From: an uncultured Calditrichaceae bacterium
Lineage (GTDB): Bacteria; Calditrichota; Calditrichia; RBG-13-44-9
Length of the DNA: 64,000 bases
Reading direction: 5' to 3'
NCBI GenBank assembly: GCA_964624795.1
Contig: CAZUZS010000009.1
Location: forward strand, 32,361-96,360
Shown: piece by piece, positions 28,184 through 62,238 of the stretch
How positions within the stretch are numbered: the first letter of the stretch is position 1
How the letters are laid out: each line of letters begins with the position of its first letter
Translations under genes and position numbers: made by a program
Notes under the pieces: model-generated
Seen by the model: only the letters and a program-made list of their open reading frames with translations
What the model was told of the DNA's origin: nothing
Database searches by the model: none

Positions 28184-29323
28184 TTAATCGATGGTAAAGT
28201 ACCCCATCAGGATTTTCAGTGCTTCCTGAGTCTTGAGTTTCTCCTCGTCATCGTCCGTATTTTGCAGCTTCTCCAACAATTTTCGCACCACCAGGCCCCG
28301 GATCGTATTCTCCTGCTCAATCAACTCCAGTTTTTCCGAGGCTGTGTATCTTGTCCGGTCCTCGACCTGAAAATAGAAGAACCCGGATTCGCAAAGCGCC
28401 TCCAAACGCGAACCGTTCAACAGAAATTCGGTTGGTCCGGTAAGTATCAACCGAAGAATCTCGCGCTGGTTGGCATATTTCTTAACAATCATCTCCGCAA
28501 CGTCTTCAGTGCTACCTAAATTGTGCTGCGAAAAATCAAGTTCGATTGTTCGATAAAATCTCTTCTGGAATTCGACATCGGTGGAACGGACGAATACTTC
28601 ATCTCGGTCGAATTCCACAACCACCACTTTACGGGCCCCCTCATCCCCCCAGCTCAGCGGTTCCAGGCATCCGGGATAGACAATATGCATTCCGTCTGAA
28701 TGATAATGCCGGAAGTTATGATAATGCCCAAGCGCCACATAGTCGAAACCTGTTTTAAACAAAGCCTCGGCGCTCAGAGGAATGTCCTGACTGTGCACCT
28801 GCCATTCCTGATTACCCACCAGTGAACCATGGATCAATGCGATATTTCGCACGTTCTTTTTTGCCGGCTGAAATGAATCAAATGGAGGACGGGAAAGAAA
28901 GCTGTAGGCCAATCCGTATATGTGGAAGATTTCACCCCGGATATCCACTTCGGCGGGTTCCCGGATGTTTGGCGAGAGTAAAAGTGTTACGCCGGGGAAC
29001 CTTTCCCTGCGAAAGACTGATTGGGGAGAAATAATATTATCGTGATTACCGGGCACCAGGAATACCGGAATATCCTTTTCGGCCACGTCGCGGAAAACAG
29101 CTTTCACTTTACCCAGAAGATTTATGTCAGGGAATGGCGAATCAAATAAATCGCCGGCTATCAGGATAGCATCCACCGGCGGGGTTTCTTCCATCGCCTG
29201 GTAAATCAATTGGGTAAAACTCTGGAATAGCTCGTGCGTCCGGATTTCCTGTTTTTCCACAGGGAGATATTTTTGTCGTGCGCCTAAGTGGATATCTGCT
29301 AAATGTAAAAACCGGGCTGCCAT
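28184..29323 (-). CDS. SbcD/Mre11-like calcineurin-fold nuclease (YhaO-like)
   Basis: Motifs in order are FLHLADIHLG, ILIAGDLFD, FLVPGNHD, GHYH and a later H. 379 aa, immediately upstream of the SbcC-like gene. Confidence 0.8.
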   Translation of the reverse strand: MAARFLHLADIHLGARQKYLPVEKQEIRTHELFQSFTQLIYQAMEETPPVDAILIAGDLFDSPFPDINLLGKVKAVFRDVAEKDIPVFLVPGNHDNIISPQSVFRRERFPGVTLLLSPNIREPAEVDIRGEIFHIYGLAYSFLSRPPFDSFQPAKKNVRNIALIHGSLVGNQEWQVHSQDIPLSAEALFKTGFDYVALGHYHNFRHYHSDGMHIVYPGCLEPLSWGDEGARKVVVVEFDRDEVFVRSTDVEFQKRFYRTIELDFSQHNLGSTEDVAEMIVKKYANQREILRLILTGPTEFLLNGSRLEALCESGFFYFQVEDRTRYTASEKLELIEQENTIRGLVVRKLLEKLQNTDDDEEKLKTQEALKILMGYFTID

Positions 29324-30063: not shown

Positions 30064-32754
30064 TTAAAATCTATAACCAATGGAGAGATAAATCAAATCC
30101 CGTTTGCCGGCCAGATGTCCATAAGCAAACCGTATGGGGCCAAATATAGAATTTACGGCGATGTAACTTCCCCAGCTTGTCAGAAAATCGGATCGGCGAA
30201 TGGGATCTTCCGATGTTTCCCACACTGCTCCAACATCAAAGGTCACACCAAAATACAAATCGAGCGGTTTAAACAGCGGACGCAAATTCTGCCGAACTTC
30301 ATTTCTGAAATGAAGGAATTGACGTCCGAATTTTTCATTCTCATAAAGACCGGGAAAGTCTGTCATCCCACCCAGGGTAAAGAATTCCGAAAAAGGAAGG
30401 GTGAGGTCAGCACTACCACCCTCTGCTTTTGCATGGTAATTCAAATGGTGAAACAGGGGATAATAGCCCTCCAGCCCGATATAGAAACGAGTAAATGCCG
30501 TAGACCCGCCCAAAATTCTCTGGTTTCCGCTTTCCCAGAACCAGCGGTTGTAGATCCCTTTGTCGGGAAAAGGCAATTTATCTCGTTTGTCAACCGTAGA
30601 ACGGATGGTGATGGAGCGAATCCGGTAGCGATCCCGATATGGGAAAAGCTCGCTATTCGAATAAACATTTACATGGTCCCAGCGGAGCTCTGCGGTAATT
30701 GAGCCCAAACGCTCAATCTGCTGACCCAGGATGAATTGCACCCCGCGTTTTATGGTCAAATATTCACCCAACCGCTTGAAGTCCCGGTAGTAACGGTCCT
30801 GCCGATCCCGGTAATAAAGAGACAGCCGGTAGGTTAGCAGCGTATTAAACAAACGCACGCTATAAACCCGGAATTCCGCCTGCCGCTCCAGATCGCCAAT
30901 GAGGCCCGAGAGAGAGGCTTTTATTTCACGACCGAAAAGATTATCTTCGGCGAATTCCATGAACGCATTGCCTTTCCTCTCCAGCGATACATTTCCGCCC
31001 AGGCGCATCAAAAAATACTTCTTTTCTTTCACTTTTATGATCAGTCGGTTTCCGGACGGATTGCGGTTGACATTTAACATCACCCGGTCGAACAGCCCTG
31101 TGCTGTAAATGTTTCGAATCCCCTGTACGGCCATATCTGCTTTGAATATTTCGCCTTTCTTTAATGGAAATTCCCTGAGAATAATGCTGTTCTGCGTAAC
31201 GGAATTTCCCTGAATTTGCAGAGCCTCGACATAGCCTTCGTCGATCCGGATTATTAATCGATGAGTGGACTGGTCGAATTTGACCATGGAGATGCGTGCA
31301 AGGGAGTACCCGGATTTTGTATATAGATCGAGCACTCTGTCCAGCCCGGAAAAGAGCAGATTATAATCAAGTATTTCATGCTCTGATATTTTAAATTGAT
31401 TTTCGAGCAGGGAATCGGGCAGGCTGTGACGGCTTTCAAACTCAACGCCCTCTACTGCCGGATTTTCCTTCAGATGGAATTCCACACGGAAAGCGTGAGG
31501 TTCCCCTTTTAGAAGAGCATATGCATCGCCGAATAAGCCACTATTATAAAACCTATACAAATCATGATAAATATCATACTCGTACAGGCTCCGTCCGCTC
31601 TGTGTCTGCATTCCCTTAATAAGCGTGTCCGATGGCACACTGTCACTTCCAATAACCTCGACAGTATCAATTTTGCCTAAGTAATCATTGCTTCCCCACA
31701 AGCTTCCCTGCCGGATTTGTATCAATTTTTTAATGGAATCGATTTTGCCAAGCGTAGCCAGGTATCCGGCATCGATCAGAGAATCGATTGAACTGAAATC
31801 GGAAGCGCCGTGGTTCCCAACCTGCGGCTGGATGAGTATGTCCGCAAGATTCCTGCTCTCCCGGGTGGGTTCGCGCATCATTATTGTTGTTACCTGGTCT
31901 GCAAGCTGCCACGGTGACTTCATCTGATCCGGTGTCCGCAGCGGCGAAGTAACATCCACCGCAATAGTAATATTGGCACCGTCATTAATCGCCACATCTA
32001 CCGGCAGATTGTCCCGAATGCCGCCGTCTGCCAACCACATGTGGTCGAGCTCTACCGGTGCGAACAGCAGCGGTATGGCGCTGCTGGCGCTGATCGCCTC
32101 CGCCAGATCCCCCTTTTTGAGAACCACCCGTCGTCCACTTATCAAATCCGTTGAGACAGCGCGGAATGGAATGCGCAAGTTATCGAAATTGTTTGCAGCC
32201 TGAAATGTTGCCCGCAGGAGGCGCGAGTAGATAATATCGAACATCCTCTGCCCCTGCGAAATTGCGGATGGAATGTAAGGCACGCCATTATCGAAGCGCA
32301 ATTCCAGTATATGCCGCCGGGGATCAGACTTTTGGGACCAAAAGAGGTTGGTTCGATAAGCTTCATCATTAAACAGGTTTGGCCAATTGATCTCATGAAT
32401 TATTTTTGTCACCGTGGAAACATCATATCCTGCGGCGTAAAATCCGCCGATAAAACTGCCTATGCTGCTGCCCACAATGAGATCTATGGGTATGTCGTTC
32501 TCCTCCAGCGCTCTTAAAACGCCAATATGCGCAAATCCGCGCGCGCCGCCGCCGCTTAAAACTAAAGCCACTTTCAAGGTTTTGGGAGATCGGTAGGTGA
32601 GGTTTTCGAGGGGAAATCTTTCCAGCGAATCCGATTGGAGGGTGATTTTCCGTACCACCGGCGAATCCTGAGCCGAAGCCGAAACACCAACCATTAAAAG
32701 AAAAAGCAATAAAAGGGGGCGTGATATATTTCGCAGAAATTCAGACAACTTCAA
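30064..32754 (-). CDS. Patatin-like phospholipase fused to POTRA plus an Omp85 beta-barrel (PlpD / type Vd-like)
   Basis: A signal peptide is followed by the patatin motifs LSGGGARG, GSSIGS (GxSxG) and DGG. POTRA and an Omp85-like barrel follow, ending in ...LSIGYRF with a terminal aromatic. 896 aa. Confidence 0.85.
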   Translation of the reverse strand: MKLSEFLRNISRPLLLLFLLMVGVSASAQDSPVVRKITLQSDSLERFPLENLTYRSPKTLKVALVLSGGGARGFAHIGVLRALEENDIPIDLIVGSSIGSFIGGFYAAGYDVSTVTKIIHEINWPNLFNDEAYRTNLFWSQKSDPRRHILELRFDNGVPYIPSAISQGQRMFDIIYSRLLRATFQAANNFDNLRIPFRAVSTDLISGRRVVLKKGDLAEAISASSAIPLLFAPVELDHMWLADGGIRDNLPVDVAINDGANITIAVDVTSPLRTPDQMKSPWQLADQVTTIMMREPTRESRNLADILIQPQVGNHGASDFSSIDSLIDAGYLATLGKIDSIKKLIQIRQGSLWGSNDYLGKIDTVEVIGSDSVPSDTLIKGMQTQSGRSLYEYDIYHDLYRFYNSGLFGDAYALLKGEPHAFRVEFHLKENPAVEGVEFESRHSLPDSLLENQFKISEHEILDYNLLFSGLDRVLDLYTKSGYSLARISMVKFDQSTHRLIIRIDEGYVEALQIQGNSVTQNSIILREFPLKKGEIFKADMAVQGIRNIYSTGLFDRVMLNVNRNPSGNRLIIKVKEKKYFLMRLGGNVSLERKGNAFMEFAEDNLFGREIKASLSGLIGDLERQAEFRVYSVRLFNTLLTYRLSLYYRDRQDRYYRDFKRLGEYLTIKRGVQFILGQQIERLGSITAELRWDHVNVYSNSELFPYRDRYRIRSITIRSTVDKRDKLPFPDKGIYNRWFWESGNQRILGGSTAFTRFYIGLEGYYPLFHHLNYHAKAEGGSADLTLPFSEFFTLGGMTDFPGLYENEKFGRQFLHFRNEVRQNLRPLFKPLDLYFGVTFDVGAVWETSEDPIRRSDFLTSWGSYIAVNSIFGPIRFAYGHLAGKRDLIYLSIGYRF

Positions 32755-32953: not shown

Positions 32954-35900
32954 TCATTTGGAAGCGTCCGGTTGACGGGATAATGTTTCAAAATACAATT
33001 TTATCAACTCCCGATACTCGGGTGAATATCCCTCCTGCAAGGCTTCCATCAACTCTTTTCGGAGACGATCCTCTTTTTGCAGCAGTGCCTCACGCAGCTC
33101 CGGCGGCGATTTCACAATCGCTTGCTTTTCCCACTCGGCTTGCCGCTTTTTGGAATATTCCTTTTCACGCACCGACTTCTGTGCATCCAGCAAACGGGAA
33201 AGGATACGCTCCTGCCGTTCAATTACTTTTCTATCCAGATTCTGCGCTTTTAGCTGTTTGATGACCTCATCCATCTCGCCACCCAGCTCTCCCAGCCGAC
33301 CTAACACATCCCGTCGATTCCCGTTTTCATCCGTCATTTTTTGCAGGGACTGCCGCACCATTTCCTGCTGGGCGGCGAGGCGCCCCAAATCATCGGAAGA
33401 AAGCTGCAATCGGCCCTGCTGCCCCTTTTGAAAGAGACTCATGCTTTGTTGATTTATTTGTCCCTGTTGCCCGGACATTTGCTGAAGCTGTTGCATAAAT
33501 TCCTGGAAGCCGGAGGCAGAAGAGGCCTGGGACATCTGGCTCATGGAACTTTGCAGTGAAAGTAATGCCCGGTTAAAACCAGCCATCGCCTCCCGCTGCG
33601 GCCTGGCTGCCTGGCGCCCATTGCGATTTTCAAGCTGTTCCAATGAATTATCCATCTTCGATATGATGTCGGCCATAACCTGGTTTAGCTGCGGCGAAAG
33701 GAAAAAAGTTTTATTCGAAATCTGGACCAGTTGTCCGATAATCCGGCGGGTAGCCTCCTGCAATTGTGATTGCTGCCGGGCGATTTCATTGATCTGGGAA
33801 GATGCCGGACTCAATTTTTCCGACTGCCGGGCCAGATTCTCCTGCTGGAAAGACGTTGAAAGCATGTCTTGCATCGCTTTTTGCATTTCGCCCGCTAATT
33901 CCTGTTTCTGCTGCATGTTCATATTCTGGCTGGCCATGTTCAGCATATTTTGCAGCTTCTGCATTTTGGAGCTGATCTGCTGGCCCGACTGCGAAGCTTG
34001 CTGCTGATTTCCGGAGGACATTTGCTGCTGCATCTGCTCCATCGCCTTTTCAATCTGCTCCTGATCCATGAAAGCCTTGGACTTTTCCAGCATTTCGGAC
34101 AACTGCTGCATCATCTCCTGGTAATCCTTGCGCGTCTGGTCGAGCTTGTCTTTCAGGAATTCAGTTTCTTTTTGCAGATTGTTTTCCTTTGTTTCCAGCC
34201 GGTTCATATCTTCCGGTGAGTTCTCTTTTTCAGCCAACTTTTGATTGACCTGGTCCTGCTCCTTCTTGATTTTATCGGCGAGATTAGCCAGCTCGTCCAT
34301 TTTCTGTTCTAACTGAACCCGTTTCAGTAGTTCGTAGGTTCTTTCAATATTCTTTTGAAACTGCTCCATGGAAAGCTGAAATTTTTCCATGGCTTTTTGC
34401 AGCTCACGGGGATCCGACTTCTCCAACGCCTGCCGCAGTTTTTCCATGGCATCCTTGAGCTCCGGCGATGCCAGGTCTTCCATCATCTTCTGGATTTCAA
34501 AATATTTTTCCACCGTTTCGGGGTTCAACATTTTGTTCTGGTCCAACTGCTTCACCACATCTTCCAGGTCCTTCTGAATTTCAGAAAGCTTGTCCATCGC
34601 CTTTCGCTGTTTTTCAAGCTGTTCCTTAATCTGCTGTTTTCTTTCCCAGTTGATGTCTGTTTCTTTCTTCAGCTCGCGATTGATTTCCTCCAGTTTCTTC
34701 TTCAACTCTTTCGATTCGCTGGAAACATCTTTCATCTTTTCCAATTGATCGTCCTGTTGCTGGTCTGCCTGCGACATGATTTCCAGCAACGATGGCAGCC
34801 GGATAGTAAATTCCGCAGTCTTAAAAGACTTGGGACCACTCACGTTATCGTTATCAAAAACTTCCACATAGTAGCGAATGTAATCATCCGGAACCATGTA
34901 GAAAGACGTCAGGTCCCAGGAATTTTCGCTGAAAGCCTTGCCGTTCTCTATTTTCCTATAAGGAAGTTTCATCCGAAAGCTGCTGCTGTCACCTCCCGAA
35001 CCCTGACGAATGACCTGGCCTTTCAACCAGAGACCGGAAAAACCGTAATCGTCTCGCAGTTCAACAAACAGCGGCATTTTAAGCTCATCACCCAAGTCCA
35101 CATCTGCCCCCGGCTGTTTGATTTCCGCGAACGGATATTCATCGCTGAGCGGGAAGATGCTGTATTCTACAGGATCAGAATTTTCGATGCTGTCCGAATC
35201 GAAAATATGGATTGCATAATTCAGGTTTTTGGATACTTTAAAGGCCCCATTCGCCGTATGTCCTGCAACTTGCAAGGGAAGGCGGGTTGAATCACTGAAA
35301 AGAACAAATGCCCCCGAAAGCTGCTTATCGGCTTCGATATGCAGATTTGCCAGGCTTCCCTTCAGCGTGGTGATCTCGCCATCGTTTGGCGGCAGCAATT
35401 TTGCCGGAAGTTTTGAGTAGGCAGGCGGGACAACCTTCACCTGGAGATTGCGAACCATTGGACGCGCGCGTACCACGACCCGCCCGGCAGGTGAAATTGC
35501 AGGCCTGTTGCGAAACCGCGGCTGGCCAATTTCTCCCAGGAAATAGTAGCCGAAGGAATTTCGCACATGATCCAGCTTGTAGTTGAATTGGCCTCCCGGC
35601 CGTACCTGCAAGCTGATTTTATTCACGTTTTGTTTCGAGTCCGACGGCGTCGTTTTTGCGGTATCTTCTATCACCAGGAAAAGATGCTCGGGAGTAACAC
35701 CTTCAAAATTGCCTTGCAGCACAACGGGATCGTTCCGGAGAACTCCAACATCTCCGGAGAGATTATTGAGCTTCACAGGAAGCGGTTCCTGAAAATTTTT
35801 CCAGGGAAGGACCATCTTTCTCAGGGCAAGCTCCACCGGCACCGGAAAAGCAACATAGACAACCAGAAGCGCCGAGAGGGCGGCCAACATGGGGCGGGTA

Positions 35901-36382
35901 TTTGCCAACAACGATTTGTATTTCACAACTTTCCGGAACGAAAGATGGGAGAAACGCTGGAACAATTGGGAAAGCGCCATATTTTTCAGCCTTGCGGAAC
36001 CACCACTGGCGCGATCCTGGTAGATCTGGATGTAATTCAGCAGCGCATCACGAACAGCAGAATCGGTTTGCCCAATGCGCCCCGCGGTATGAAATATTTC
36101 CACCTGTGACGGCGACGAAATTTCGCGAAGCGAAGGATAAATGCGGGTAAATCCGAATATAAAAAACCAGGCCACCAAACCGGCCGCAAAAATCAGCCGA
36201 AATGGCTCGGACACATTAAACAACAGGTTACTCAGAATAAAAAGCAGGGCAGCCGCCAGCGAAATGGAAAGAAAGTAAATGCTGTTCAGAAGTATTTTCC
36301 GCAGGAAAAATCGCCGGTGAACAGAGATGATGTGTTGATATATCCCGCGATATTTTTCGTTGATGTCCGAATCCATATTCAT
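32954..36382 (-). CDS. Large membrane protein (1142 aa) with an N-terminal double-TM anchor, a beta-rich middle domain and a ~500-aa Q/E/K-rich coiled-coil region (possibly DUF4175-like)
   Basis: The TM helices are ILLNSIYFLSISLAAALLFIL and LIFAAGLVAWFFIFGF, with a third, MLAALSALLVVYVAFPV. A long low-complexity coiled coil runs QMQQQMSSGNQQQASQ...MQQKQELAGEMQKAMQ. The C-terminus ends YSPEYRELIKLYFETLSR. Confidence 0.7.
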   Translation of the reverse strand: MNMDSDINEKYRGIYQHIISVHRRFFLRKILLNSIYFLSISLAAALLFILSNLLFNVSEPFRLIFAAGLVAWFFIFGFTRIYPSLREISSPSQVEIFHTAGRIGQTDSAVRDALLNYIQIYQDRASGGSARLKNMALSQLFQRFSHLSFRKVVKYKSLLANTRPMLAALSALLVVYVAFPVPVELALRKMVLPWKNFQEPLPVKLNNLSGDVGVLRNDPVVLQGNFEGVTPEHLFLVIEDTAKTTPSDSKQNVNKISLQVRPGGQFNYKLDHVRNSFGYYFLGEIGQPRFRNRPAISPAGRVVVRARPMVRNLQVKVVPPAYSKLPAKLLPPNDGEITTLKGSLANLHIEADKQLSGAFVLFSDSTRLPLQVAGHTANGAFKVSKNLNYAIHIFDSDSIENSDPVEYSIFPLSDEYPFAEIKQPGADVDLGDELKMPLFVELRDDYGFSGLWLKGQVIRQGSGGDSSSFRMKLPYRKIENGKAFSENSWDLTSFYMVPDDYIRYYVEVFDNDNVSGPKSFKTAEFTIRLPSLLEIMSQADQQQDDQLEKMKDVSSESKELKKKLEEINRELKKETDINWERKQQIKEQLEKQRKAMDKLSEIQKDLEDVVKQLDQNKMLNPETVEKYFEIQKMMEDLASPELKDAMEKLRQALEKSDPRELQKAMEKFQLSMEQFQKNIERTYELLKRVQLEQKMDELANLADKIKKEQDQVNQKLAEKENSPEDMNRLETKENNLQKETEFLKDKLDQTRKDYQEMMQQLSEMLEKSKAFMDQEQIEKAMEQMQQQMSSGNQQQASQSGQQISSKMQKLQNMLNMASQNMNMQQKQELAGEMQKAMQDMLSTSFQQENLARQSEKLSPASSQINEIARQQSQLQEATRRIIGQLVQISNKTFFLSPQLNQVMADIISKMDNSLEQLENRNGRQAARPQREAMAGFNRALLSLQSSMSQMSQASSASGFQEFMQQLQQMSGQQGQINQQSMSLFQKGQQGRLQLSSDDLGRLAAQQEMVRQSLQKMTDENGNRRDVLGRLGELGGEMDEVIKQLKAQNLDRKVIERQERILSRLLDAQKSVREKEYSKKRQAEWEKQAIVKSPPELREALLQKEDRLRKELMEALQEGYSPEYRELIKLYFETLSRQPDASK

Positions 36383-36476
36383 CGATCTTTAATTTGATAA
36401 TTGTTATTTGCCGGCAGAAAGTGCTGGGCGAATCGCAGAGCGCATAAATTCCCGGCTGCTTTGTTTTAGTTGGTTT

Positions 36477-37139
36477 TCAATGGGTTAATGCCCAAACCAG
36501 GATGTTCGTCCCCATTTTCAACGCGTTCTCCCGGATGTCCGGCGGGTCGCCATGAATATCCGGATCCTCGCAGCCGTCGCTGATATCGGTATTGAATGAG
36601 TAAAACGCCACCATCCGTCCATCGTAAAACAGCGCAAAACCGTGGGGCGGACCGCCATCGTGTTTGTGGATTTTGGGCAGTCCGTTGGGAAACTGGAAAA
36701 CGGTATGGTAGATCGGGTTCGAAAAAGGCAGTTCGACCCAGTCGAGCTTGGGGAAAACCCGTTTCATTTCCCGGCGAAACGATATATTCATGCCGTAATC
36801 ATCATCCGCCCAGAGAAATCCACCATGCGTGAGGAATTTGTGCAAACGGGCGATTTCCTCATCCGAGAATTTGATATTTCCGTGCCCTGCCATGTAAATA
36901 ATCGGGTACTTAAAGAAATCGTTGTCCAAAGGGCTGACGGTTACTTCCCGCTCTGCCGTACGAACATTCGTGTGCTGCCCGGCATAGTTAAACAAATTCA
37001 CAAAAGTGGTACGGTTGCCATACCAATCCCCGCCACCCCCGTACTTGACGCGTGCAATAGTTACCGGCTCCTGGGCAGGGAGAACCGCGGGCAGAATTAT
37101 CGCTCCCAACAGCATTATTATCCCTGGTATTCTTCTCAT
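36477..37139 (-). CDS. DUF4159-like secreted protein (class-I glutamine-amidotransferase-like fold)
   Basis: The signal peptide is MRRIPGIIMLLGAIILPAVLPA. The conserved block is IARVKYGGGGDWYGNRTTFVNL...IIYMAGHGNIKFSDEEIARLHKFLTHGGFLWADD. It sits 94 bp upstream of the coiled-coil membrane protein. Confidence 0.6.
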   Translation of the reverse strand: MRRIPGIIMLLGAIILPAVLPAQEPVTIARVKYGGGGDWYGNRTTFVNLFNYAGQHTNVRTAEREVTVSPLDNDFFKYPIIYMAGHGNIKFSDEEIARLHKFLTHGGFLWADDDYGMNISFRREMKRVFPKLDWVELPFSNPIYHTVFQFPNGLPKIHKHDGGPPHGFALFYDGRMVAFYSFNTDISDGCEDPDIHGDPPDIRENALKMGTNILVWALTH

Positions 37140-37439
37140 CACATTATTCCAAAACATGTTACTGGAAAATATACAAAAAATGCGATCAAAACTCAGCTGC
37201 CAAAAACAGCACTCAATGTTAATATCTCCATGTCTGCAAGTCGATCCGGCAGCGCCCTCTTGCAAAAACCGATCGGCCCGCGTTCAATATCTTCAACTAA
37301 CTGAATAAAAGGGAAACAGTTTCGCACCAATTATCAATTTTGGACAAAACAAAAGGGGAAACTGCACAAAACAGACGCTTTCGGAAGGCATCCGATCTGT
37401 TCGATGCAAAATCCCCTTAAGATTGAAAAACAATTCTAT

Positions 37440-37978: not shown

Positions 37979-38731
37979 TCAATCTGCGAATTGTTGCGCA
38001 AATTTTTTTCTGTTTTTTTGACTATTGAGGCCGATTTGGCTGAGGATGGACCGGACACCGAACCAACCGACTTTGGTGAAGCCGTATGCTTCGGTGTTAA
38101 GAAGCTTGTTGATTTTATATGCACCCAGGTGTGGGTTATCGGCAACAATGTGTTTTATCTTCTCTTCCAACGGACGCATGGAAAGCGGTAATTCTCTGCG
38201 ATGATCTCTTACCTCGGCTGATGCTGAAATTGGCTCGACCTTTCCGTCCGGCGCAGAAGCCGATCTTGGCTTTGGCGGCAGATAGGATTCTTCCTCTTCT
38301 TCAGCCGCGGGACTGGCGCTCTGCACCCCGGCAGACTCTCGTATTACGGTAGCGGCTGCTTCCGGCTTTCGTGCAACTTCCTCAAATTTCATTATTGCAT
38401 CTTCTGTGGCATCGTAAACATCCAGTATATGATGAAATTCAAGCAGTTCAAAAATCTCATACACATCGGGAATCATTCGAACCAGTTTAAGGTCGCCGTT
38501 GTGCTCACGGATGGATTTGATTTCGCTGATAAAAATTCCCCAGCCGGCCGAACTGATGTAATCAACGTTTCCAAGGTCGATGATAATGTTATAACGATTT
38601 TGTTTCAGGAGACTATTTAAGGCGCGTTCAACCTCGGAAGATGTGGTCGTATCAATAAAACCTCCAACCTTTATGATGGAGACCTGATTTTGACTTCCCG
38701 CTACCTCAGTCGATACTTGAATGCCTTCCAT
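37979..38731 (-). CDS. STAS-domain (anti-sigma-factor antagonist-like) protein with a C-terminal HTH-like extension
   Basis: The STAS region is VSIIKVGGFIDTTTSSEVERALNSLL...IIIDLGNVDYISSAGWGIFISE. The C-terminal ~90 aa, IKHIVADNPHLGAYKINKLLNTEAYGFTKVGWFGVRSILSQIGL, resembles the HPxxGPRKI...VSxSTVxRIL HTH of IS481-type transposases. Confidence 0.75.
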   Translation of the reverse strand: MEGIQVSTEVAGSQNQVSIIKVGGFIDTTTSSEVERALNSLLKQNRYNIIIDLGNVDYISSAGWGIFISEIKSIREHNGDLKLVRMIPDVYEIFELLEFHHILDVYDATEDAIMKFEEVARKPEAAATVIRESAGVQSASPAAEEEEESYLPPKPRSASAPDGKVEPISASAEVRDHRRELPLSMRPLEEKIKHIVADNPHLGAYKINKLLNTEAYGFTKVGWFGVRSILSQIGLNSQKNRKKFAQQFAD

Positions 38732-38808: not shown

Positions 38809-41562
38809 CTAATCAACTTCTCTTTCTTTTTTCTCTGCCTGTTCTGCTACGCTTTCACTATTATCGTCAGCTTCATGATTTTCTGAAGTTGTATCTATAG
38901 GAGTTTGTTTTTCTATTTCCCCATCTTCCGGCGGCTTTTGCTCCCGCCCCGATTCCTGAGCAGGTTCTTCGGCCGGGATTTCAGGCATTGGTTCTGCCGC
39001 CTCCGGGTGTTCTTCGTCCGATCGCCGGCCCTTTACAGTTAGCATTTTTTCCCGCGATTTGATGTTGGCGGCCGGGGTCGCTACGGTGAAGACATTTGGA
39101 ATGCTTTCCTGCTCGTCTGACCGGAAACCGACCATCACTTCGCCATCCAGGGTAAGAAGCGGTGTGCCGGGCGGTTTGAGCCGGCGTTTGCCACCCCGCT
39201 GAATAAACATTTGGCGCTGTTTTTTAGTATTTAATTTAGCCCGTATTAACTCTTCGTATATAGCTCGCGGCGCCAATTCAATATTACCATATTTTTCAGT
39301 GTTTAGCGCCCCGCTGATGCGCTTGGGACCATATTCAGGATGTTCCCTGATAACATCATAAAGCTTTGTTTTTACTTCAATGCTCAAATGGCGAAGACCT
39401 ACGTTGGTATACTCATGGAGCAGTTCCCTAAGCGCAGTTATTCCGCCTTCGACATACATTTTCTTATATTTGTAATATGTTGTCGTCGATACCCCGATTT
39501 GCTGGCAGGCCTGTGCGACAGTTACATCGCTTTGCCCGGCAAGTTCGAACAATTCCTTGAACATGTCTATTTTGACATCAACCGCATCCATATTTTCCTT
39601 AAACGCAACCAGCGTCACATCATCACTCTGCTCATATCCGTTGGTAAAATTGAGAATATCCTCTTTTACATTTTTCACAAAATCGACAACATCCAGGTGC
39701 CCGTTGCGACGAATGGCAGCAAGGAACCGCTCCTCACCATAAAGCTCCCGGCTGGGATTCATTGCTTCGGTGATGCCATCGGTATAGCAGACCAGGATAT
39801 CATCGGGGTGCAGCCGGATGCGATCCGCCTTAATGGTTGTGTCAAATAGTCGAATATCGGGAAGCGTAATTCCAACCGGAAATCCCGGAGGATTCAGGTA
39901 ATAAGTTTCCTTAGTCTTGCCGCGGAAAAGAATCATGGGATTGTGGCCGGCGCTTGAGAAAGCAATCGTCCGCTCCCGGGAATCCAGGATAATATAGAAT
40001 GCCGTGACGAACATGCCTTTGCGAATATCGTCGGTAATGAATGAGTTTACCCGGGCTAACACTTCCGCCGGATTTCTATTGCCGCGCGCTTCCAGCCGCA
40101 GGGCAGTGCGGATCATAGTCATAACCATCGATCCCGGAACGCCTTTACCGGATACGTCCGCGACGCAGATTCCGGTGGTATGCTCGTCCACTTCCACGAA
40201 ATCGAAAAGATCTCCTCCCACTTCCTTGGCTGCCTGGTAGTAAGAAGTGATATCGTAACCAATGACATTCGGAAAGTCATCGGGAAGAAGCATCTGCTGG
40301 ATTTCCTGTGCAACCTGCAGCTCACGCTGCATGCGCTGCTGTTCCATCAGGTTCACCTGGGCTTCGCGGAATTTGCTGGTCATCTCGTTAAATGCTTGCG
40401 CAATCTCGCCCAGCTCATCGCTGCCGTCGATATCAAGTTCATCCTCATCAACCGTGCCGTGCCCAACCTGACGCACCCAGCCGGCCAACTTGTGGAATGG
40501 ATCCATGATAAGGGTGATCAACACAAATGAACCGCTGTATCCCACAACCAGGACAATTAGCAGCAGGAGCAACAGGTTGACCCGGCTATTGAATATTTTA
40601 TGCTCAACAAAATTCCGGTTTATCCAAATGTGGGCATACCCAAGCGGCGGCGTGTCCGCCCCCTGGATGCTGATGGGAGTCACAAAATCGAAAACCACGC
40701 TGTCGGCAGCCAGCGTACGCTGGTAGACCAGCGTTTGACCAATAGAATCGACAAATTGCTCGTTCTCCGTAATTAGCGGCTTACCGTCCAGAATCATGTC
40801 TTCTTTCATGGGATAAGTAGTGCGCGGGCGTTGTCCGGTATCGGTAATTACTACAAGGGAAATCATTTTGGGATTGCTCTCTTTTACGGACTTCGCATTC
40901 TCCGACAAAATGATAAAATCGTCTTTGCTCAACGGTTCCCATGAAATTTTGGACAGGCTCACGCTCTGCGAATACCCGCTCTCGAATATTTCACTGGTCG
41001 TATTTTCCCGGATACGGGAGTTGAAAATAATGAAGGAGACAATTGCCAGAATGGTCATAATCGCGGAAGTAACCAGCGTGAATTTGGTTCGCAGGGTGAG
41101 CGAATCCCAGACCATAAATGGTTTAGTGCGCTCCACCGTTTCCCGCATTTTGGTCAGGCGCAGCTCATTTCCCCGACTGGTTACATTATACTTAATGTCA
41201 TCCATTAGCTTGCGCATCATGAAAATGCCCAAGCCGCCTTTCTTGCCGATGGAGACATATTTATCGAGATCTGGATTCTTTACCTGCCGGGGATCAAAGC
41301 TTTTTCCATGATCGATGATGACGATCGTCAAACTCAGGCTGCGAACAATAGCGCGAATGATGATCTGTCCATTCCGAATATCGCGATATCCGTGTCGGAT
41401 GATATTGGTGCAGGATTCATCGACCACCAGTTTGAAGGAATTGATGACCTTGTGGGTGAAACGGTATTTTCTTCCGATGTGCTCGATGAAATCTCTCACC
41501 TGCCGCAGGTAGGACATCTGCGCCGGAATAATAATCTCTTCTTTTACAACATTTTTAAACAT
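38809..41562 (-). CDS. Multidomain partner-switching protein: N-terminal RsbW/SpoIIAB-like GHKL kinase, 2-TM periplasmic sensor, HAMP, PP2C (SpoIIE) phosphatase and a C-terminal transposase-type HTH
   Basis: The GHKL domain is LVVDESCTNIIRHGY...IVIIDHGKSFDP...KKGGLGIFMMRKL. The TM helices are FTLVTSAIMTILAIVSFIIF and LLLLLLIVLVVGYSGSFVLITLIM. The HAMP segment is LGEIAQAFNEMTSKFREAQ. The PP2C domain is VGGDLFDF...ICVADVSGKGVPGSMVM...SAGHNPMILF...LVCYTDGITEA. The C-terminal segment is IGVSTTTYYKYKKMYVEGGITALREL...VIREHPEYGPKRIS. Confidence 0.85.
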   Translation of the reverse strand: MFKNVVKEEIIIPAQMSYLRQVRDFIEHIGRKYRFTHKVINSFKLVVDESCTNIIRHGYRDIRNGQIIIRAIVRSLSLTIVIIDHGKSFDPRQVKNPDLDKYVSIGKKGGLGIFMMRKLMDDIKYNVTSRGNELRLTKMRETVERTKPFMVWDSLTLRTKFTLVTSAIMTILAIVSFIIFNSRIRENTTSEIFESGYSQSVSLSKISWEPLSKDDFIILSENAKSVKESNPKMISLVVITDTGQRPRTTYPMKEDMILDGKPLITENEQFVDSIGQTLVYQRTLAADSVVFDFVTPISIQGADTPPLGYAHIWINRNFVEHKIFNSRVNLLLLLLIVLVVGYSGSFVLITLIMDPFHKLAGWVRQVGHGTVDEDELDIDGSDELGEIAQAFNEMTSKFREAQVNLMEQQRMQRELQVAQEIQQMLLPDDFPNVIGYDITSYYQAAKEVGGDLFDFVEVDEHTTGICVADVSGKGVPGSMVMTMIRTALRLEARGNRNPAEVLARVNSFITDDIRKGMFVTAFYIILDSRERTIAFSSAGHNPMILFRGKTKETYYLNPPGFPVGITLPDIRLFDTTIKADRIRLHPDDILVCYTDGITEAMNPSRELYGEERFLAAIRRNGHLDVVDFVKNVKEDILNFTNGYEQSDDVTLVAFKENMDAVDVKIDMFKELFELAGQSDVTVAQACQQIGVSTTTYYKYKKMYVEGGITALRELLHEYTNVGLRHLSIEVKTKLYDVIREHPEYGPKRISGALNTEKYGNIELAPRAIYEELIRAKLNTKKQRQMFIQRGGKRRLKPPGTPLLTLDGEVMVGFRSDEQESIPNVFTVATPAANIKSREKMLTVKGRRSDEEHPEAAEPMPEIPAEEPAQESGREQKPPEDGEIEKQTPIDTTSENHEADDNSESVAEQAEKKEREVD

Positions 41563-41622: not shown

Positions 41623-43527
41623 CTACTGTTTCGTCCTTTTGATCCTATCTTCGGCACTTTTTATCGCATCCTGTAATTTCTTGCTGTAAGGATACTTTTT
41701 CTGCAGTTCTTTCCAGATCTCCAGCGCATCCGAGTACCTTCCGGCCAGGAACATATCGACACCCTTAATATACATCCTTGCCGATTCCTGATCCATTTCT
41801 TGTTCAACAACTCCCATTCCTCGCTTGGTTCGCTCAATATATTGTTTCAGTCGCTCATTGGACGGATCCATTTTTAATGCCTCGTCAAACAACTGAAGCG
41901 CCTTCTGGTAATCGCCCAGGTCGTAAAGCTGCAGTGCCTGCTGCACATACTGCTGTATTTTGATGCGATTGGCCAGGGTGCTGATCTCATCCTTCAATTT
42001 CGGATCTTCCGGCGCCAGAACCAACGCCTCACTTAAAATCTGCAGCGCGTCGGAATAGTTGCCCCCCTGGAACTCTTCCCGGCCCTTTGTTACCAGTTTA
42101 CGAACTTCTTCCTCCAGCCGACGGTCGGTCGAAGCAATCGCATCCTTTATTATCGGATCATCCGGCGATCGCTCCAATGCCAGGTTGAATTCGACAAGCG
42201 CATCAGTGAACTGGTTATTCTGGAGATAAACATTACCCTTATCGAAATGCAGTTTCACGAAAGTCCTGTTTTCTTCGGCCATCTCTTTATTAACTGCATT
42301 TTTGATTGCCGCCTGTTGGCGATTCTCAAAATCCTTCTGAATAAGGCGGTCGGTGCTGTCCAGCAAGGCATTTGCCGGCTTATTGAACGGGTCCACCGAA
42401 ACCACGCCCTGGAATTCAGCATAGGCGTCGAAATAGCGATTCTGATCCAGGTATTCCTTTCCCTTTTGGGTATGCTCGGTAATGAAATTTTGCTTTTCCT
42501 GTTCTTTGGTGCGATCCACGAGTTCCTTCTCGCGGCGCTTTCTCGCTTCTTCGGCGATCAGCAACATTTCTTCACGCGATTTGCCGATATCGAATGTAAT
42601 GGAAAAACGGTGGGTTGGCGGGAATGCGCCGTCGGCATTTATCGATCCGAACGAATAATCGATATGCATGAAAGAATAATTCAAACCCGCACCAAACGCC
42701 AGGTGGCTGTTGTCGAAACCAAGGCGGACGGTTCCCATCTCACGGAATGTGTACTCGGTGCCGGCTAATAAAGCAGCGCTTTCGTTTTTGCTCATGTGAT
42801 AATCAATCGCCACTCTAATCTGGCCGCTTTCTCCTATCTGCAAACCTTTGCTCAATCCTAATGTCATCAAGTATGGCTCGTTTTCAATCACGTTGCCAAG
42901 TTTCAGGTCCGGAGACACCAGGTTTCGGTAGCTCAGACCAAACGACAGGTTTTGCAGCAAATTATTTTCCCACTGTGGCCGGTACATCATCCCGATATCC
43001 AATCCCAGGCCGGTAGCATTGTTATTTATTTCAGTAAACTGCTGGCGCCTGATTTTGGTGGTAATGCCGCCAATCAGGTTGTATGGCAGCTTTTTGCTGT
43101 AAGAAAAATACAGCTCGCTCTCGTCGTACGACATTTGCCCCAGCCGCTCGTTCGTGGTAGTAACCACCGGAATATCACCGGTTCCCAGGCGAGTGTAACC
43201 AAGCCCTACCGTGCCGTAGGTGAGCGTCGGGTATACAATCCCTACAAAATCGTACATGGTTCCCTCAAACACCTGATCATGGAAAAGCGTGAAACTGAGA
43301 CGGGGAATCAACTCCAGCCCGGCAGGATTCCAGAAAACTGCCGTGGGGTCATTCGCTACCGCTACATAGGCACGTCCCAGACCCAGGGCACGCGCACCGA
43401 CACCATAACTTAGGGGCAATGTAGTGCCGTATTCGCCATCCGATTGGGCCGATAAAAGAGCGGGAAGTAATAGGACTCCATACAGACCAACCAGCCATTT
43501 TCCTGCAGATTTCATTATTTTGCGCAT
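41623..43527 (-). CDS. Outer-membrane beta-barrel (FadL/PorV-like N-terminal signature) fused to C-terminal TPR repeats
   Basis: The signal peptide is LVGLYGVLLLPALLSAQ. The signature GVGARALGLGRAYVAVANDPTAVFWNPAGL matches the FadL / PorV (LptO) family start. A ~300-aa barrel ends in an aromatic-rich strand. A ~300-aa helical TPR-like C-terminus contains repeated ...ALQLYDLGDYQKALQLFDEALKMDP. It starts 14 bp after the giant gene's stop. Confidence 0.6.
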   Translation of the reverse strand: MRKIMKSAGKWLVGLYGVLLLPALLSAQSDGEYGTTLPLSYGVGARALGLGRAYVAVANDPTAVFWNPAGLELIPRLSFTLFHDQVFEGTMYDFVGIVYPTLTYGTVGLGYTRLGTGDIPVVTTTNERLGQMSYDESELYFSYSKKLPYNLIGGITTKIRRQQFTEINNNATGLGLDIGMMYRPQWENNLLQNLSFGLSYRNLVSPDLKLGNVIENEPYLMTLGLSKGLQIGESGQIRVAIDYHMSKNESAALLAGTEYTFREMGTVRLGFDNSHLAFGAGLNYSFMHIDYSFGSINADGAFPPTHRFSITFDIGKSREEMLLIAEEARKRREKELVDRTKEQEKQNFITEHTQKGKEYLDQNRYFDAYAEFQGVVSVDPFNKPANALLDSTDRLIQKDFENRQQAAIKNAVNKEMAEENRTFVKLHFDKGNVYLQNNQFTDALVEFNLALERSPDDPIIKDAIASTDRRLEEEVRKLVTKGREEFQGGNYSDALQILSEALVLAPEDPKLKDEISTLANRIKIQQYVQQALQLYDLGDYQKALQLFDEALKMDPSNERLKQYIERTKRGMGVVEQEMDQESARMYIKGVDMFLAGRYSDALEIWKELQKKYPYSKKLQDAIKSAEDRIKRTKQ

Positions 43528-61721: not shown

Positions 61722-61743
61722 AATTGCTTCCTGTACTCTTTGA

Positions 61744-62238
61744 TTAACGGTTGGAAATAGAAGGTATGATGCCTGAAGCGAACACCTGGTCTGATACTTT
61801 ATTGCCATCGGAGCCGGCAACGATTTCTTTAAAATTTACCTGGTTTTTAACCAGTGGTGTTTTCAAGATATTTCCAACACACTTTATGTGCAATTCATCG
61901 CTGCTTTTTAAAAGATTTTCTTCAAAAAACAACATGATGCCTTCAGGCACCTTCTGCCAGGCAACAACCGAATCCCTGACAGGTTCCGAAAAGCTGTTTT
62001 GAAGCCAGACCTGTTTTTTATTTATTTCGAGAGAAACCGGTATGAGTACGATTTCCTTTGGCATCTCCACAAGTATACCATTTGCAGGGGCAATATTCAA
62101 ATTCAGCGTCAGATCGCATTCCCAATCGGAGGTCGTCTGCGGGATCGGATCTATCCGAACTCCAACCTCTGCCTGTTGGGCATAAATTCCCGTGATTAAA
62201 AACAAAATCATTATGAGACTTAATGATTTTAGATGCAT
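61744..62238 (-). CDS. Small secreted hypothetical protein immediately upstream of the giant adhesin gene
   Basis: The signal peptide is MHLKSLSLIMILFLITGIYAQQ. 164 aa. The stop lies 22 bp before the adhesin ATG. Confidence 0.5.
   Translation of the reverse strand: MHLKSLSLIMILFLITGIYAQQAEVGVRIDPIPQTTSDWECDLTLNLNIAPANGILVEMPKEIVLIPVSLEINKKQVWLQNSFSEPVRDSVVAWQKVPEGIMLFFEENLLKSSDELHIKCVGNILKTPLVKNQVNFKEIVAGSDGNKVSDQVFASGIIPSISNR

What the first reader, a model, noticed from the sequence alone, without database searches (positions are those of the whole stretch)
32954..37139. DUF4159-like secreted protein paired with a 1142-aa double-TM, Q-rich coiled-coil membrane protein
The DUF4159-like block (ARVKYGGGGDWYGN...MAGHG...) normally occurs in BatA/MoxR-vWA aerotolerance-type neighbourhoods. 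Here it sits 94 bp upstream of an enormous protein with an N-terminal double-TM anchor, a beta-rich domain and ~500 aa of glutamine/glutamate/lysine-rich coiled coil (QMQQQMSSGNQQQASQSGQQISSKMQKLQNMLNMASQNMNMQQKQ). No MoxR ATPase or vWA genes are visible in the window. The pair may form a membrane-spanning scaffold of unknown function; the large protein is possibly the poorly characterised DUF4175 type.
Basis: partly seen in the sequence, partly recalled or inferred. Interest (0 to 1): 0.55.

Follow-up and report, generated by a model that had tools for sequence, protein, structure and literature searches.

The report
Conserved DUF4159–DUF4175 periplasmic gene pair
Two adjacent genes of a Calditrichia bacterium encode a small, very conserved secreted protein and a 1142-residue membrane-anchored protein; the pair recurs in several bacterial phyla and probably forms a cell-envelope complex, but both belong to catalogued families of unknown function, so the finding is real and only moderately new.

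Summary
On the minus strand, 36477-37139 encodes a 220-aa signal-peptide protein that matches Pfam DUF4159 over its full length (204 bits). After a 94-bp gap, 32954-36382 encodes an intact 1142-aa protein that matches Pfam DUF4175 (46.6 bits, cutoff 27.3). The large protein has three N-terminal transmembrane helices rather than two. These are followed by three tandem beta-sandwich domains and about 600 aa of Q/E/K-rich helices, all predicted to be periplasmic. No MoxR, DUF58, vWA or BatA gene lies in the 64 kb.

The pair is a conserved cassette. In 68 of 74 assessable genomes (Calditrichota, Eisenbacteria, Gemmatimonadales and others) a homologue of the large protein directly follows DUF4159, and none of those 68 loci has MoxR nearby. 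Relatives of both proteins do sit in MoxR–DUF58–BatA clusters elsewhere (Auribacterota, Gemmatirosa).

DUF4159 has a glutamine-amidotransferase-like fold (PDB 4I66) without a catalytic cysteine. It carries an invariant acidic/histidine cluster and evolves about half as fast as its partner.

Best reading: a two-subunit, inner-membrane-anchored periplasmic envelope module related to Bat/MoxR-type systems. Its biochemical function is untested. It is a new member of known but uncharacterised families, of moderate interest.

The parts
36477..37139 (-). DUF4159 gene: 220 aa, secreted or periplasmic, glutamine-amidotransferase-like (flavodoxin-like) fold
   Evidence: Pfam PF13709 204.3 bits, full length. 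AF2 pLDDT 89.9. Foldseek top hit is PDB 4I66 (Hoch_4089), TM 0.75/0.82, followed by weak GATase1-like hits. 65-82% identity within Calditrichota and 47-57% in other phyla.
37074..37139 (-). Signal peptide of DUF4159 (aa 1-22, MRRIPGIIMLLGAIILPAVLPA/QE). It has no cysteine, so it is not a lipoprotein signal.
   Evidence: Hydrophobic segment at aa 4-22. 33 of 34 aligned homologues have an N-terminal hydrophobic stretch. The cleavage site is inferred from the sequence.
36383..36476 (.). 94-bp intergenic spacer between the two genes, with no terminator-like hairpin on the coding strand
   Evidence: In other genomes the first residue of the large protein that aligns to the profile lies mostly 3-350 bp after the DUF4159 match, which fits co-transcription.
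32954..36382 (-). Large DUF4175-family protein, 1142 aa, intact
   Evidence: Pfam PF13779 46.6 bits against a cutoff of 27.3. Full-length homologues. AF2 mean pLDDT 75.7.
36140..36274 (-). TM1-TM2 hairpin (aa 37-81)
   Evidence: Kyte-Doolittle peaks of 2.29 and 1.99. AF2 helices 34-54 and 59-80.
35891..36139 (-). Predicted cytoplasmic loop (aa 82-164), K/R-rich, with a conserved patch around aa 100-130 (G..S...DAL.N..QI......S..L)
   Evidence: About 13 K/R residues in the loop (sequence). Conservation across 148 representatives at 24-41% identity. AF2 confidence is low here.
35834..35890 (-). TM3 (aa 165-183), which places the rest of the protein in the periplasm
   Evidence: Kyte-Doolittle peak of 2.25. 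129 of 149 family representatives have three TM-like segments in the first 260 aa, and 144 of 149 have none after that.
34790..35797 (-). Three tandem beta-sandwich (Ig/MG-like) domains, aa ~196-531. The third carries the family-invariant D414, P417, P424, D444-D445, G447 and D510-N511.
   Evidence: AF2 pLDDT 84-93. Foldseek against PDB gives only generic multi-Ig/MG-domain matches such as complement C3/C5 and GhpA. Invariant columns.
32978..34789 (-). Q/E/K-rich helical region (aa 532-1135), modelled as 18 helices. The most conserved segment is aa 1056-1080 (RQERILSRLLDAQKS...R), plus the C-terminal Y1119/Y1123/I1127/Y1130 motif.
   Evidence: Composition, AF2 secondary structure, conservation. 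Evidence for internal repeats is weak: hhalign 85-89% probability between segments.
37140..37439 (.). 300-bp intergenic region upstream of DUF4159, a possible site for the cassette's own promoter
   Evidence: Sequence only. No Rfam family matches. The sigma-70 consensus scan is uninformative for this lineage. Not tested further.

Best explanation
The two genes form a conserved two-gene cassette that most likely builds an inner-membrane-anchored periplasmic complex involved in cell-envelope maintenance. It is a stripped-down, MoxR-free relative of the Bat/MoxR-type envelope gene clusters.

Shown here:
(1) Both genes are intact and belong to Pfam DUF4159 and DUF4175.
(2) They are adjacent on the same strand in 68 of 74 assessable genomes across Calditrichota, Eisenbacteria, Gemmatimonadales and unclassified lineages, with different flanking genes.
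(3) DUF4159 carries a signal peptide.
(4) The large protein has three N-terminal TM helices. With the positive-inside rule, these put about 960 residues (three Ig-like domains, then a long helical region) in the periplasm, the same compartment as DUF4159.
(5) DUF4159 has the class-I glutamine-amidotransferase-like fold of PDB 4I66 but no conserved cysteine.

Inferred:
(a) DUF4159 docks on the large protein.
(b) The invariant residues of DUF4159 form one polar pocket that binds a divalent metal or a conserved envelope ligand. These are D38/W39/Y40 after strand 1, H86 at the strand end where amidotransferases carry the nucleophile, D112-D113 after the next strand, K156/H158/H160, and D185/D188/E191/H196 after the last strand. 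All sit at the C-terminal edge of the sheet.
(c) The large protein acts as a membrane-anchored stalk: three Ig-like domains of about 4 nm each, plus helical bundles with helices up to 63 residues. That is long enough to reach across the periplasm towards the peptidoglycan or outer membrane.
(d) The output is envelope integrity or remodelling, by analogy with phenotypes and regulation reported for alphaproteobacterial TIGR02302/DUF4175 genes.
For: - Family assignment.
- Intactness and family size.
- Conserved adjacency: one search found 585 related loci and kept 80. In one search, 68 of 74 have the large protein directly downstream, and MoxR/DUF58/BatA lie within 8 kb in only one locus, which lacks the large protein.
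- Different flanks: in Calditrichota the order is giant adhesin, PorV-TPR, RsbW/SpoIIE, STAS, DUF456, the pair, then patatin-Omp85. In Eisenbacteria-like lineages it is SecD, SecF, the pair, a TPR protein, then a ~425-aa protein.
- Topology: and (129 of 149 representatives have three TM-like segments).
- Structure.
- Conservation: DUF4159 is 51-82% identical where the partner's beta domains are 22-70%. Motifs are invariant, and D112, D113, D185 and E191 persist even in the divergent MoxR-linked fusion form.
- Link to MoxR systems: L068 has TPR, MoxR, DUF58, BatA_N-vWA, a GATase1-like protein, then DUF4159. L087 has DUF4159, MoxR, DUF58, BatA_N-vWA, then a 1268-aa protein scoring 155 bits against the large-protein profile.
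- Envelope role of relatives: RSP_0730 (TIGR02302) is directly activated by the CenKR envelope regulon (PMC9275681). A TIGR02302 mutant of Azorhizobium overproduces exopolysaccharide (title only). Mutation of the RL3499-RL3502 operon causes envelope and morphology defects (title only). That RL3501/RL3502 are the DUF4159/DUF4175 proteins is my recollection and was not verified.
Against: - No physical interaction was tested or modelled.
- The spatial clustering of the DUF4159 invariant residues is deduced from their position relative to predicted strands, not from coordinates.
- DUF4159 occurs without the large protein in Bacteroidota, Riflebacteria and Auribacterota, so its activity does not strictly need this partner.
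- The envelope-integrity role is borrowed from distant alphaproteobacterial relatives, which the window protein does not match at NCBIfam level.
- The relative domain arrangement in the large-protein model is uncertain (pTM 0.46), so its reach is an estimate.
- Whether MoxR, DUF58 and BatA are encoded elsewhere in this genome could not be checked.
Confidence: 0.5

Rival explanations
1. The pair is not autonomous. It is the periplasmic output arm of a complete MoxR-DUF58-BatA (vWA) system encoded elsewhere in the same genome, and it works only with that ATPase machinery.
For: Close homologues of DUF4159 (49% identity, L068) and a relative of the large protein (L087) lie inside MoxR-DUF58-BatA clusters. 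The large protein has a conserved cytoplasmic loop (aa ~100-130) that could contact cytoplasmic partners.
Against: Only one of the 80 loci, L068, has MoxR, DUF58 or BatA within 8 kb, and it lacks the large protein, so none of the 68 loci carrying the pair has them. None is in the 64-kb window. A strict functional dependence usually leaves at least occasional linkage within a lineage.
Confidence: 0.25
2. DUF4159 is primarily a periplasmic enzyme, a metal-dependent hydrolase or amidase acting on an envelope polymer or lipid. The large protein is only a lineage-specific tether or regulator.
For: DUF4159 is unusually conserved (65-82% within the phylum, about 50% across phyla) and evolves about half as fast as its partner. 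It has invariant His/Asp/Glu residues at strand ends of an alpha/beta fold. It occurs as an orphan next to lgt and porQ in Bacteroidota and on a Corynebacterium plasmid.
Against: No DUF4159 member has a demonstrated activity. The amidotransferase Cys-His-Glu triad is absent. The closest weak fold matches include non-catalytic modules such as the GH42 middle domain and the IFT52 GIFT domain. H86 is replaced by Asp or Glu in 4I66 and in the fused form, which suits metal or ligand binding as well as catalysis.
Confidence: 0.2
3. The adjacency is inherited synteny without a functional link, and the large protein is a generic coiled-coil or low-complexity membrane protein, for example SMC/Rad50-like or a division protein like AdvA.
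For: Weak NCBIfam hits of some relatives to SMC/Rad50 models. One relative is labelled SbcC-like by JGI. A. baumannii AdvA has a reported DUF4175 hit (PMC7481262).
Against: The pair persists across phyla while its flanks change, with short gaps on the same strand. The SMC/Rad50 hits have E values of 1e-3 to 1e-5 and show only coiled-coil similarity, with no ATPase-domain match in the window protein. The predicted topology is periplasmic. Invariant positions lie in the beta domains and the C-terminus, not in low-complexity sequence.
Confidence: 0.05

Closest known systems
Pfam DUF4159 (PF13709); structural representative PDB 4I66 (Hoch_4089, Haliangium ochraceum)
   Same: Full-length profile match at 204 bits. 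Same fold: Foldseek E=4e-13, TM 0.75/0.82. Pfam places the family in the class-I glutaminase clan on structural grounds (PMC4702930).
   Different: Only 19% identity to 4I66. The window protein is the standalone, signal-peptide form with its own invariant set (GGGDWYGN, AGHGN, GLPKxHxHD). 4I66 has Asp in place of H86 and DSA in place of DDD.
Pfam DUF4175 (PF13779) and the alphaproteobacterial TIGR02302 family (for example RSP_0730 of R. sphaeroides and the A. caulinodans gene of Sato et al. 2016)
   Same: Match above the Pfam cutoff, and 35 of 39 relatives also match. From my recollection of the TIGR02302 description, not checked here, that family shares the general architecture of N-terminal TM helices followed by a long extracytoplasmic region with Gln-rich low-complexity helices. 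It also has an envelope-related regulation or phenotype.
   Different: The match covers only profile positions 184-584 of 825. Neither the window protein nor any of the 39 relatives hits TIGR02302 in NCBIfam. This subfamily is about 1100-1190 aa long and is conserved end to end.
Bat / MoxR-type envelope operons: Bacteroides BatI, Borrelia bb0170-0176, Leptospira bat, Rhizobium RL3499-RL3502
   Same: Homologues of both window proteins occur in MoxR-DUF58-BatA clusters (L068, L087). The BatA-type protein BB0173 is an inner-membrane protein with its globular domain in the periplasm (PMC5700661), which is the same compartment logic. TPR proteins accompany the pair in Eisenbacteria-like genomes, as BatC and BatE do in Bat operons.
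   Different: The defining MoxR AAA+ ATPase, DUF58 and vWA/BatA genes are absent from the window and from all 68 loci that carry the pair. The N-terminus of the large protein is not a BatA_N domain.
Non-catalytic GATase1-like modules: GH42 middle domain, ThuA-like proteins, IFT52/GldG GIFT domain
   Same: Weak fold resemblance (Foldseek E 0.01-0.09). No cysteine nucleophile.
   Different: The similarity is marginal, and DUF4159 has a distinct invariant His/Asp/Glu set.

Membership tests
Pfam DUF4159 (PF13709) | Profile HMM score above the gathering threshold over the whole domain | tested here: met
   204.3 bits against 25.9; aa 27-218 map to profile positions 1-202 of 202
Pfam DUF4159 (PF13709) | Fold of the solved representative, 4I66 | tested here: met
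   The AF2 model (pLDDT 89.9) superposes on 4I66 with TM 0.75/0.82 and rmsd 2.7 Å
Pfam DUF4175 (PF13779) | Profile HMM score above the gathering threshold | tested here: met
   46.6 bits against 27.3, but only profile positions 184-584 of 825 are aligned. 35 of 39 diverse relatives also match, best E=2.5e-34.
TIGR02302 (alphaproteobacterial DUF4175 equivalog) | NCBIfam model match | tested here: not met
   No hit at E<=0.01 for the window protein or for any of the 39 relatives
TIGR02226 / BatA_N (PF07584) N-terminal double-transmembrane domain | Profile match at the N-terminal TM hairpin | tested here: not met
   aa 1-190 scanned alone at E<=10 gave no BatA hit, and NCBIfam gave none. The true BatA_N proteins in L068 and L087 are detected by the same tool.
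Bat / MoxR-type envelope operon | MoxR (AAA_3) ATPase, DUF58 and a vWA/BatA protein encoded in the same cluster | tested here: not met
   None in 64 kb: Pfam scans of all ORFs and six-frame tblastn. None within 8 kb in the 68 loci that carry the pair.
Bat / MoxR-type envelope operon | MoxR, DUF58 and BatA present elsewhere in the same genome | not testable with these tools
   Only the window is available.
Catalytic class-I glutamine amidotransferase | Conserved Cys nucleophile of the Cys-His-Glu triad | tested here: not met
   The only cysteine, C190, is Leu or Trp in other-phylum homologues. The strand-end 'elbow' position holds H86, or Asp/Glu in distant members. The elbow assignment is inferred from the AF2 secondary structure, not from a superposition.
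   AF2 gives 18 helices of 12-63 residues with short loops and pTM 0.46. No dedicated coiled-coil predictor was available.
SMC / Rad50 / SbcC | N- and C-terminal ABC-type ATPase head domains | tested here: not met
   No ATPase-domain hit in Pfam or NCBIfam for the window protein. A few relatives show only weak coiled-coil-level hits.

The most novel reading that the evidence does not exclude
The cassette is an autonomous, ATPase-independent envelope device found mainly in relatives of the FCB superphylum. A highly conserved metal-binding periplasmic subunit with a GATase-like fold is held on a three-TM, three-Ig, helical-rod stalk. The stalk spans the periplasm and measures or tethers the distance between the inner membrane and the wall or outer membrane, or delivers the small subunit to the outer layers. 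This would be a periplasm-spanning system of a kind not yet described, and would also give a first function to DUF4159 and DUF4175.
Probability: 0.2. Interest if true: 0.65.

Novelty: new member of a known kind. Interest (0 to 1): 0.38.

Why it matters
DUF4159 and DUF4175 are large, widespread families: more than 585 genome loci for this DUF4159 type and 4755 clusters (50% identity) for the large protein at E<=1e-30. In the paper library searched, neither family had been characterised biochemically. The tight pairing of the two outside any MoxR operon separates them from the ATPase/vWA core of Bat-type systems. It also yields a simple two-protein hypothesis, a secreted ligand- or metal-binding subunit on a membrane-anchored periplasmic stalk, that interaction modelling and genetics can test. 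If confirmed, it would help explain the long-unresolved function of Bat/MoxR envelope clusters. As it stands, this is a well-supported annotation refinement, not a surprise.

Tried and rejected
- The weak Pfam 'Intein_splicing' hit on the large protein (19 bits against a cutoff of 35.8) was rejected as sub-threshold noise.
- The SMC/Rad50/SbcC resemblance is coiled-coil composition only.
- A profile search of PDB sequences with the large-protein family found only designed helical proteins and occludin at E>0.005.
- Foldseek against PDB with the large-protein model found only generic tandem Ig/MG domains.
- tblastn against the plasmid collection gave one stray Corynebacterium DUF4159 and the unannotated Gemmatirosa chromid for DUF4159. 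It gave nothing for the window's large protein and only a self-hit for the Gemmatirosa protein.
- The third homologue search, run with a broad alignment, added only eight marginal hits, most of them long proteins with only partial coverage.
- Attempts to extend the window through exact-protein look-ups of edge genes failed, and the exact large protein was found only on a 7.4-kb metagenome contig. MoxR elsewhere in this genome therefore stays unchecked.
- The internal-repeat test of the helical region gave only moderate hhalign probabilities of 85-89%.
- Rfam and tRNA scans of the window found nothing.
- The sigma-70 promoter and terminator scan was uninformative.
- The key Rhizobium paper (PMC3133104) is not held.

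Full report
**Observation.** Both genes lie on the minus strand.
- Gene A (36477-37139) encodes 220 aa from the ATG at 37139 and contains the quoted IARVKYGGGGDWYGN and MAGHG blocks.
- Gene B (32954-36382) encodes 1142 aa and contains the quoted Q-rich stretch. The gap between the two is exactly 94 bp.
- Pfam assigns gene A to DUF4159 over the whole profile (E=1.8e-60, 204.3 bits). It assigns gene B to DUF4175 (E=1.7e-12, 46.6 bits, cutoff 27.3, aa 311-766 on profile positions 184-584 of 825). NCBIfam has no model for either.
- Gene B is not a product of sequencing errors. Twenty-seven Calditrichia homologues of 1131-1145 aa align end to end at 48-64% identity. A profile of them finds 4755 clusters (50% identity) at E<=1e-30 among 1.84 billion representatives, and the 150 best are almost all about 1100-1190 aa and matched over their full length.
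- Names attached to the homologues place the window in a Calditrichia (Calditrichota) bacterium.

**Absence of MoxR/vWA.** Every sizeable ORF in the window was scanned with Pfam. None carries AAA_3, DUF58, VWA or BatA. A six-frame tblastn of the window with MoxR, DUF58, BatA_N-vWA and GATase1-like proteins taken from locus L068 found nothing at E<=0.01.

**Anatomy of the large protein.**
- Hydropathy shows three TM-like helices (37-55, 61-81, 165-183), not a simple double anchor.
- The N-terminus (six K/R residues) and the 82-164 loop (about 13 K/R) are positively charged. By the positive-inside rule the N-terminus and that loop are cytoplasmic, and residues 184-1142 are periplasmic. This is an inference.
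- The pattern is a family trait. 129 of 149 representatives have three TM-like segments in the first 260 residues, and 144 of 149 have none afterwards.
- AlphaFold2 with a 27-sequence alignment (mean pLDDT 75.7, pTM 0.46) gives three tandem beta-sandwich domains between about 200 and 530 (pLDDT 84-93). These are followed by 18 helices of 12-63 residues separated by short loops. The helical part therefore looks like helical bundles, not one continuous coiled coil.
- Foldseek against PDB returned only generic multi-Ig/MG-domain proteins such as complement C3/C5, A2ML1 and GhpA fragments. A sequence-profile search of PDB found nothing meaningful.
- Across 148 representatives at 24-41% identity, conservation concentrates in three places. 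The first is a patch in the cytoplasmic loop (aa ~100-130). The second is the third beta-sandwich (D414, P417, P424, D444-D445, G447, D500, D510-N511, G516-P517), an Asp-rich set that might bind calcium; this is speculation. The third is the C-terminus (aa 1056-1080, RQxRILSRLLDAQxS...R, plus Y1119/Y1123/Y1130).
- The N-terminus is not a BatA_N/TIGR02226 domain. No hit appeared even at E<=10 when aa 1-190 were scanned alone.
- 35 of 39 diverse relatives match Pfam DUF4175. None matches TIGR02302.

**Anatomy of DUF4159.**
- The protein starts with a signal-peptide-like segment that has no cysteine, as do 33 of 34 aligned homologues.
- The AF2 model is confident (pLDDT 89.9, pTM 0.85). Its only strong structural match is PDB 4I66, the uncharacterised Hoch_4089 (E=4e-13, TM 0.75/0.82). 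Weak matches follow to class-I glutamine-amidotransferase-like modules: the GH42 middle domain, ThuA-like proteins, the GMP synthase GATase domain and the IFT52 GIFT domain. This agrees with Pfam's placement of DUF4159 in the glutaminase-I clan on structural grounds (PMC4702930).
- Conservation is striking. Identity is 65-82% among Calditrichota-type sequences and 47-57% in Eisenbacteria, Gemmatimonadales, Bacteroidota, Riflebacteria and Auribacterota. The invariant blocks are GGGDWYGN (35-42), AGHGN (84-88), GGFLWADDD (106-114), RRE (122-124), FPNGLPKxHKH (150-160), NTDISDGCE (183-191) and H196.
- In the model, these blocks directly follow strands 28-31, 80-86, 108-115 and 175-182. That is the C-terminal edge of the sheet, where alpha/beta folds usually place their active or binding sites. 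H86 sits at the strand end where amidotransferases carry the nucleophilic cysteine. Both points are inferences, because no coordinates were inspected.
- The single cysteine, C190, is not conserved across phyla. D112, D113, D185 and E191 persist even in the divergent fused form, and residue 86 is His, Asp or Glu in different subfamilies. A divalent-metal or polar-ligand pocket is therefore more likely than amidotransferase chemistry.

**The pair is a cassette.** A scan of 185,579 species genomes with DUF4159 motifs found at least 585 related loci, and the best 80 were kept.
- Six-frame profile searches show that 74 loci have sequence downstream of DUF4159. In 68 of these a homologue of the large protein follows on the same strand. 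The first residue of the large protein that aligns to the profile lies mostly 3-350 bp beyond the DUF4159 match.
- The six exceptions are four Bacteroidota loci, one Riflebacteria locus and one Auribacterota locus.
- The flanks differ between phyla. In Calditrichota, a long syntenic block surrounds the pair: giant adhesin, PorV-family/TPR protein, RsbW-HAMP-PP2C-HTH protein, STAS, DUF456, the pair, then patatin-POTRA-Omp85. In Eisenbacteria-like genomes the order is SecD, SecF, the pair, a ~600-aa TPR protein, then a ~425-aa secreted protein.
- The mature DUF4159 is 51-82% identical to the window protein, while the partner's beta domains are 22-70% identical in the same loci. The small subunit therefore evolves about half as fast. 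The two identities are correlated (r=0.87 over the 51 loci with long alignments for both), as shared descent would predict.

**Relation to MoxR/Bat systems.** MoxR, DUF58, BatA or GATase1-like genes lie within 8 kb of DUF4159 in only one of the 80 loci, L068 (Auribacterota).
- There a 49%-identical standalone DUF4159 closes a TPR, MoxR (AAA_3), DUF58, BatA_N-vWA, GATase1-like operon, and no large protein follows.
- On the Gemmatirosa kalamazoonensis 1.1-Mb replicon (L087), a C-terminal DUF4159 domain is followed by MoxR, DUF58, BatA_N-vWA and a 1268-aa protein. That protein scores 155 bits against the N-terminal 520 positions of the large-protein profile and 26 bits on DUF4175.
The arrangement in the window, which is the commonest among the 80 closest loci kept from the scan, is MoxR-free in cis.

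**Literature.** The held library contains almost nothing on either DUF.
- DUF4175 is mentioned for the N-terminal region of the A. baumannii division protein AdvA (PMC7481262).
- The alphaproteobacterial TIGR02302 protein RSP_0730 is a non-essential, TM-containing member of the CenKR cell-envelope regulon, and CenR directly activates it (PMC9275681).
- A TIGR02302 deletion in Azorhizobium overproduces exopolysaccharide and fails in infection (title only).
- Mutation of the Rhizobium RL3499-RL3502 MoxR operon causes morphology and envelope defects (title only). That paper is not held, and the domain content of RL3501/RL3502 is my recollection.
- The BatA-type protein BB0173 of Borrelia is an inner-membrane protein with its globular domain in the periplasm (PMC5700661).

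**Interpretation.** The best-supported reading is a two-subunit, inner-membrane-anchored periplasmic module for envelope maintenance.
- Its proposed parts are a secreted, highly constrained GATase-fold subunit with a polar or metal pocket, and a three-TM stalk protein. The stalk's three Ig-like domains and long helical region could reach across much of the periplasm.
- Shown: family membership, intactness, conserved adjacency across phyla, matching predicted compartment, folds, and the absence of MoxR in cis.
- Inferred: the physical complex, the ligand pocket, the reach of the stalk, and the envelope role.
- Rivals are dependence on a MoxR system encoded elsewhere, DUF4159 as an enzyme with the large protein as an accessory tether, and mere synteny.

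**Novelty and score.** Both proteins fall into catalogued families of unknown function, and databases already name relatives 'DUF4159 domain-containing protein' and 'DUF4175 family protein'. This is a new member of a known kind. What is new is that the two form a tight MoxR-free cassette with a very conserved small subunit. That is a useful and testable lead, but a specialist would not find it startling. Interest is 0.38.

Noticed in passing
window 43542-61820 (-): One uninterrupted ORF of 6092 aa (TTG start; a plausible ATG start lies slightly downstream at MTKRLL...). It has Big_1, CARDB-like and NIDO-like hits in the end segments that were scanned. Calditrichota relatives have equivalents of about 4660-5420 aa at the same position, followed by a PorV-family gene. 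It looks like a giant surface adhesin, possibly a type IX secretion substrate.
   Followed up: partly
window 41623-43527 (-): A PorV/PorQ-family outer-membrane beta-barrel (NCBIfam PorV_fam 128.7 bits, cutoff 90) fused to a C-terminal TPR region of about 300 aa. The fusion is conserved in Calditrichota loci.
   Followed up: partly
window 38809-41562 and 37979-38731 (-): A single 917-aa protein combines an RsbW-like anti-sigma kinase domain, TM/HAMP, a PP2C (SpoIIE) phosphatase and a C-terminal HTH. A STAS anti-sigma antagonist with a long C-terminal extension follows it. This is an unusual fused partner-switching module, and in Calditrichota it is syntenic with the DUF4159 pair.
   Followed up: no
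window 30064-32754 (-): An 896-aa patatin phospholipase, POTRA and Omp85 fusion (PlpD-like), directly downstream of the large DUF4175 protein. It holds that position in most Calditrichota loci.
   Followed up: no
window 25556-28027 and 28184-29323 (-): An SbcC-like ATPase (AAA_27/SMC_N) that seems to carry hydrophobic, TM-like segments mid-protein, next to an SbcD-like metallophosphoesterase. A membrane-associated SbcCD-like pair would be unusual.
   Followed up: no
L066 7108-10371 (uncultured Bacteroidota); similar in L054 and L046: In Bacteroidota MAGs an orphan DUF4159 sits between lgt (prolipoprotein diacylglyceryl transferase) and a CcmC-like gene that is followed by T9SS porQ (234 bits, cutoff 220). 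A PorV/PorQ-family gene also lies four genes from DUF4159 in the window. This may be a recurrent link to the outer membrane or type IX secretion, or it may be coincidence.
   Followed up: partly
L086 9992-10609 (Corynebacterium crudilactis plasmid pCRULAC1): A standalone DUF4159 gene (40% identity) sits among IS26-flanked aminoglycoside and sulfonamide resistance genes, next to a dihydrofolate reductase, on a Gram-positive plasmid. This is an odd context for a protein that is otherwise periplasmic.
   Followed up: no
P0122: A DUF4159 protein 66% identical to the window's is labelled 'Candidatus Thorarchaeota archaeon' in NCBI. This is probably a misbinned bacterial contig.
   Followed up: no
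window 3773-5851 (+): A 692-aa ORF with no Pfam hit at E<=1e-4, overlapped by a 469-aa antisense ORF. Not examined further.
   Followed up: no
L060 12066-15187 and L002 13348-16618: In Eisenbacteria-like genomes the large protein's stop overlaps the start of a ~565-615-aa TPR protein, which is followed by a ~425-519-aa secreted protein with no Pfam or NCBIfam match. These may be extra subunits of the cassette in those lineages, and they are absent from the window.
   Followed up: partly
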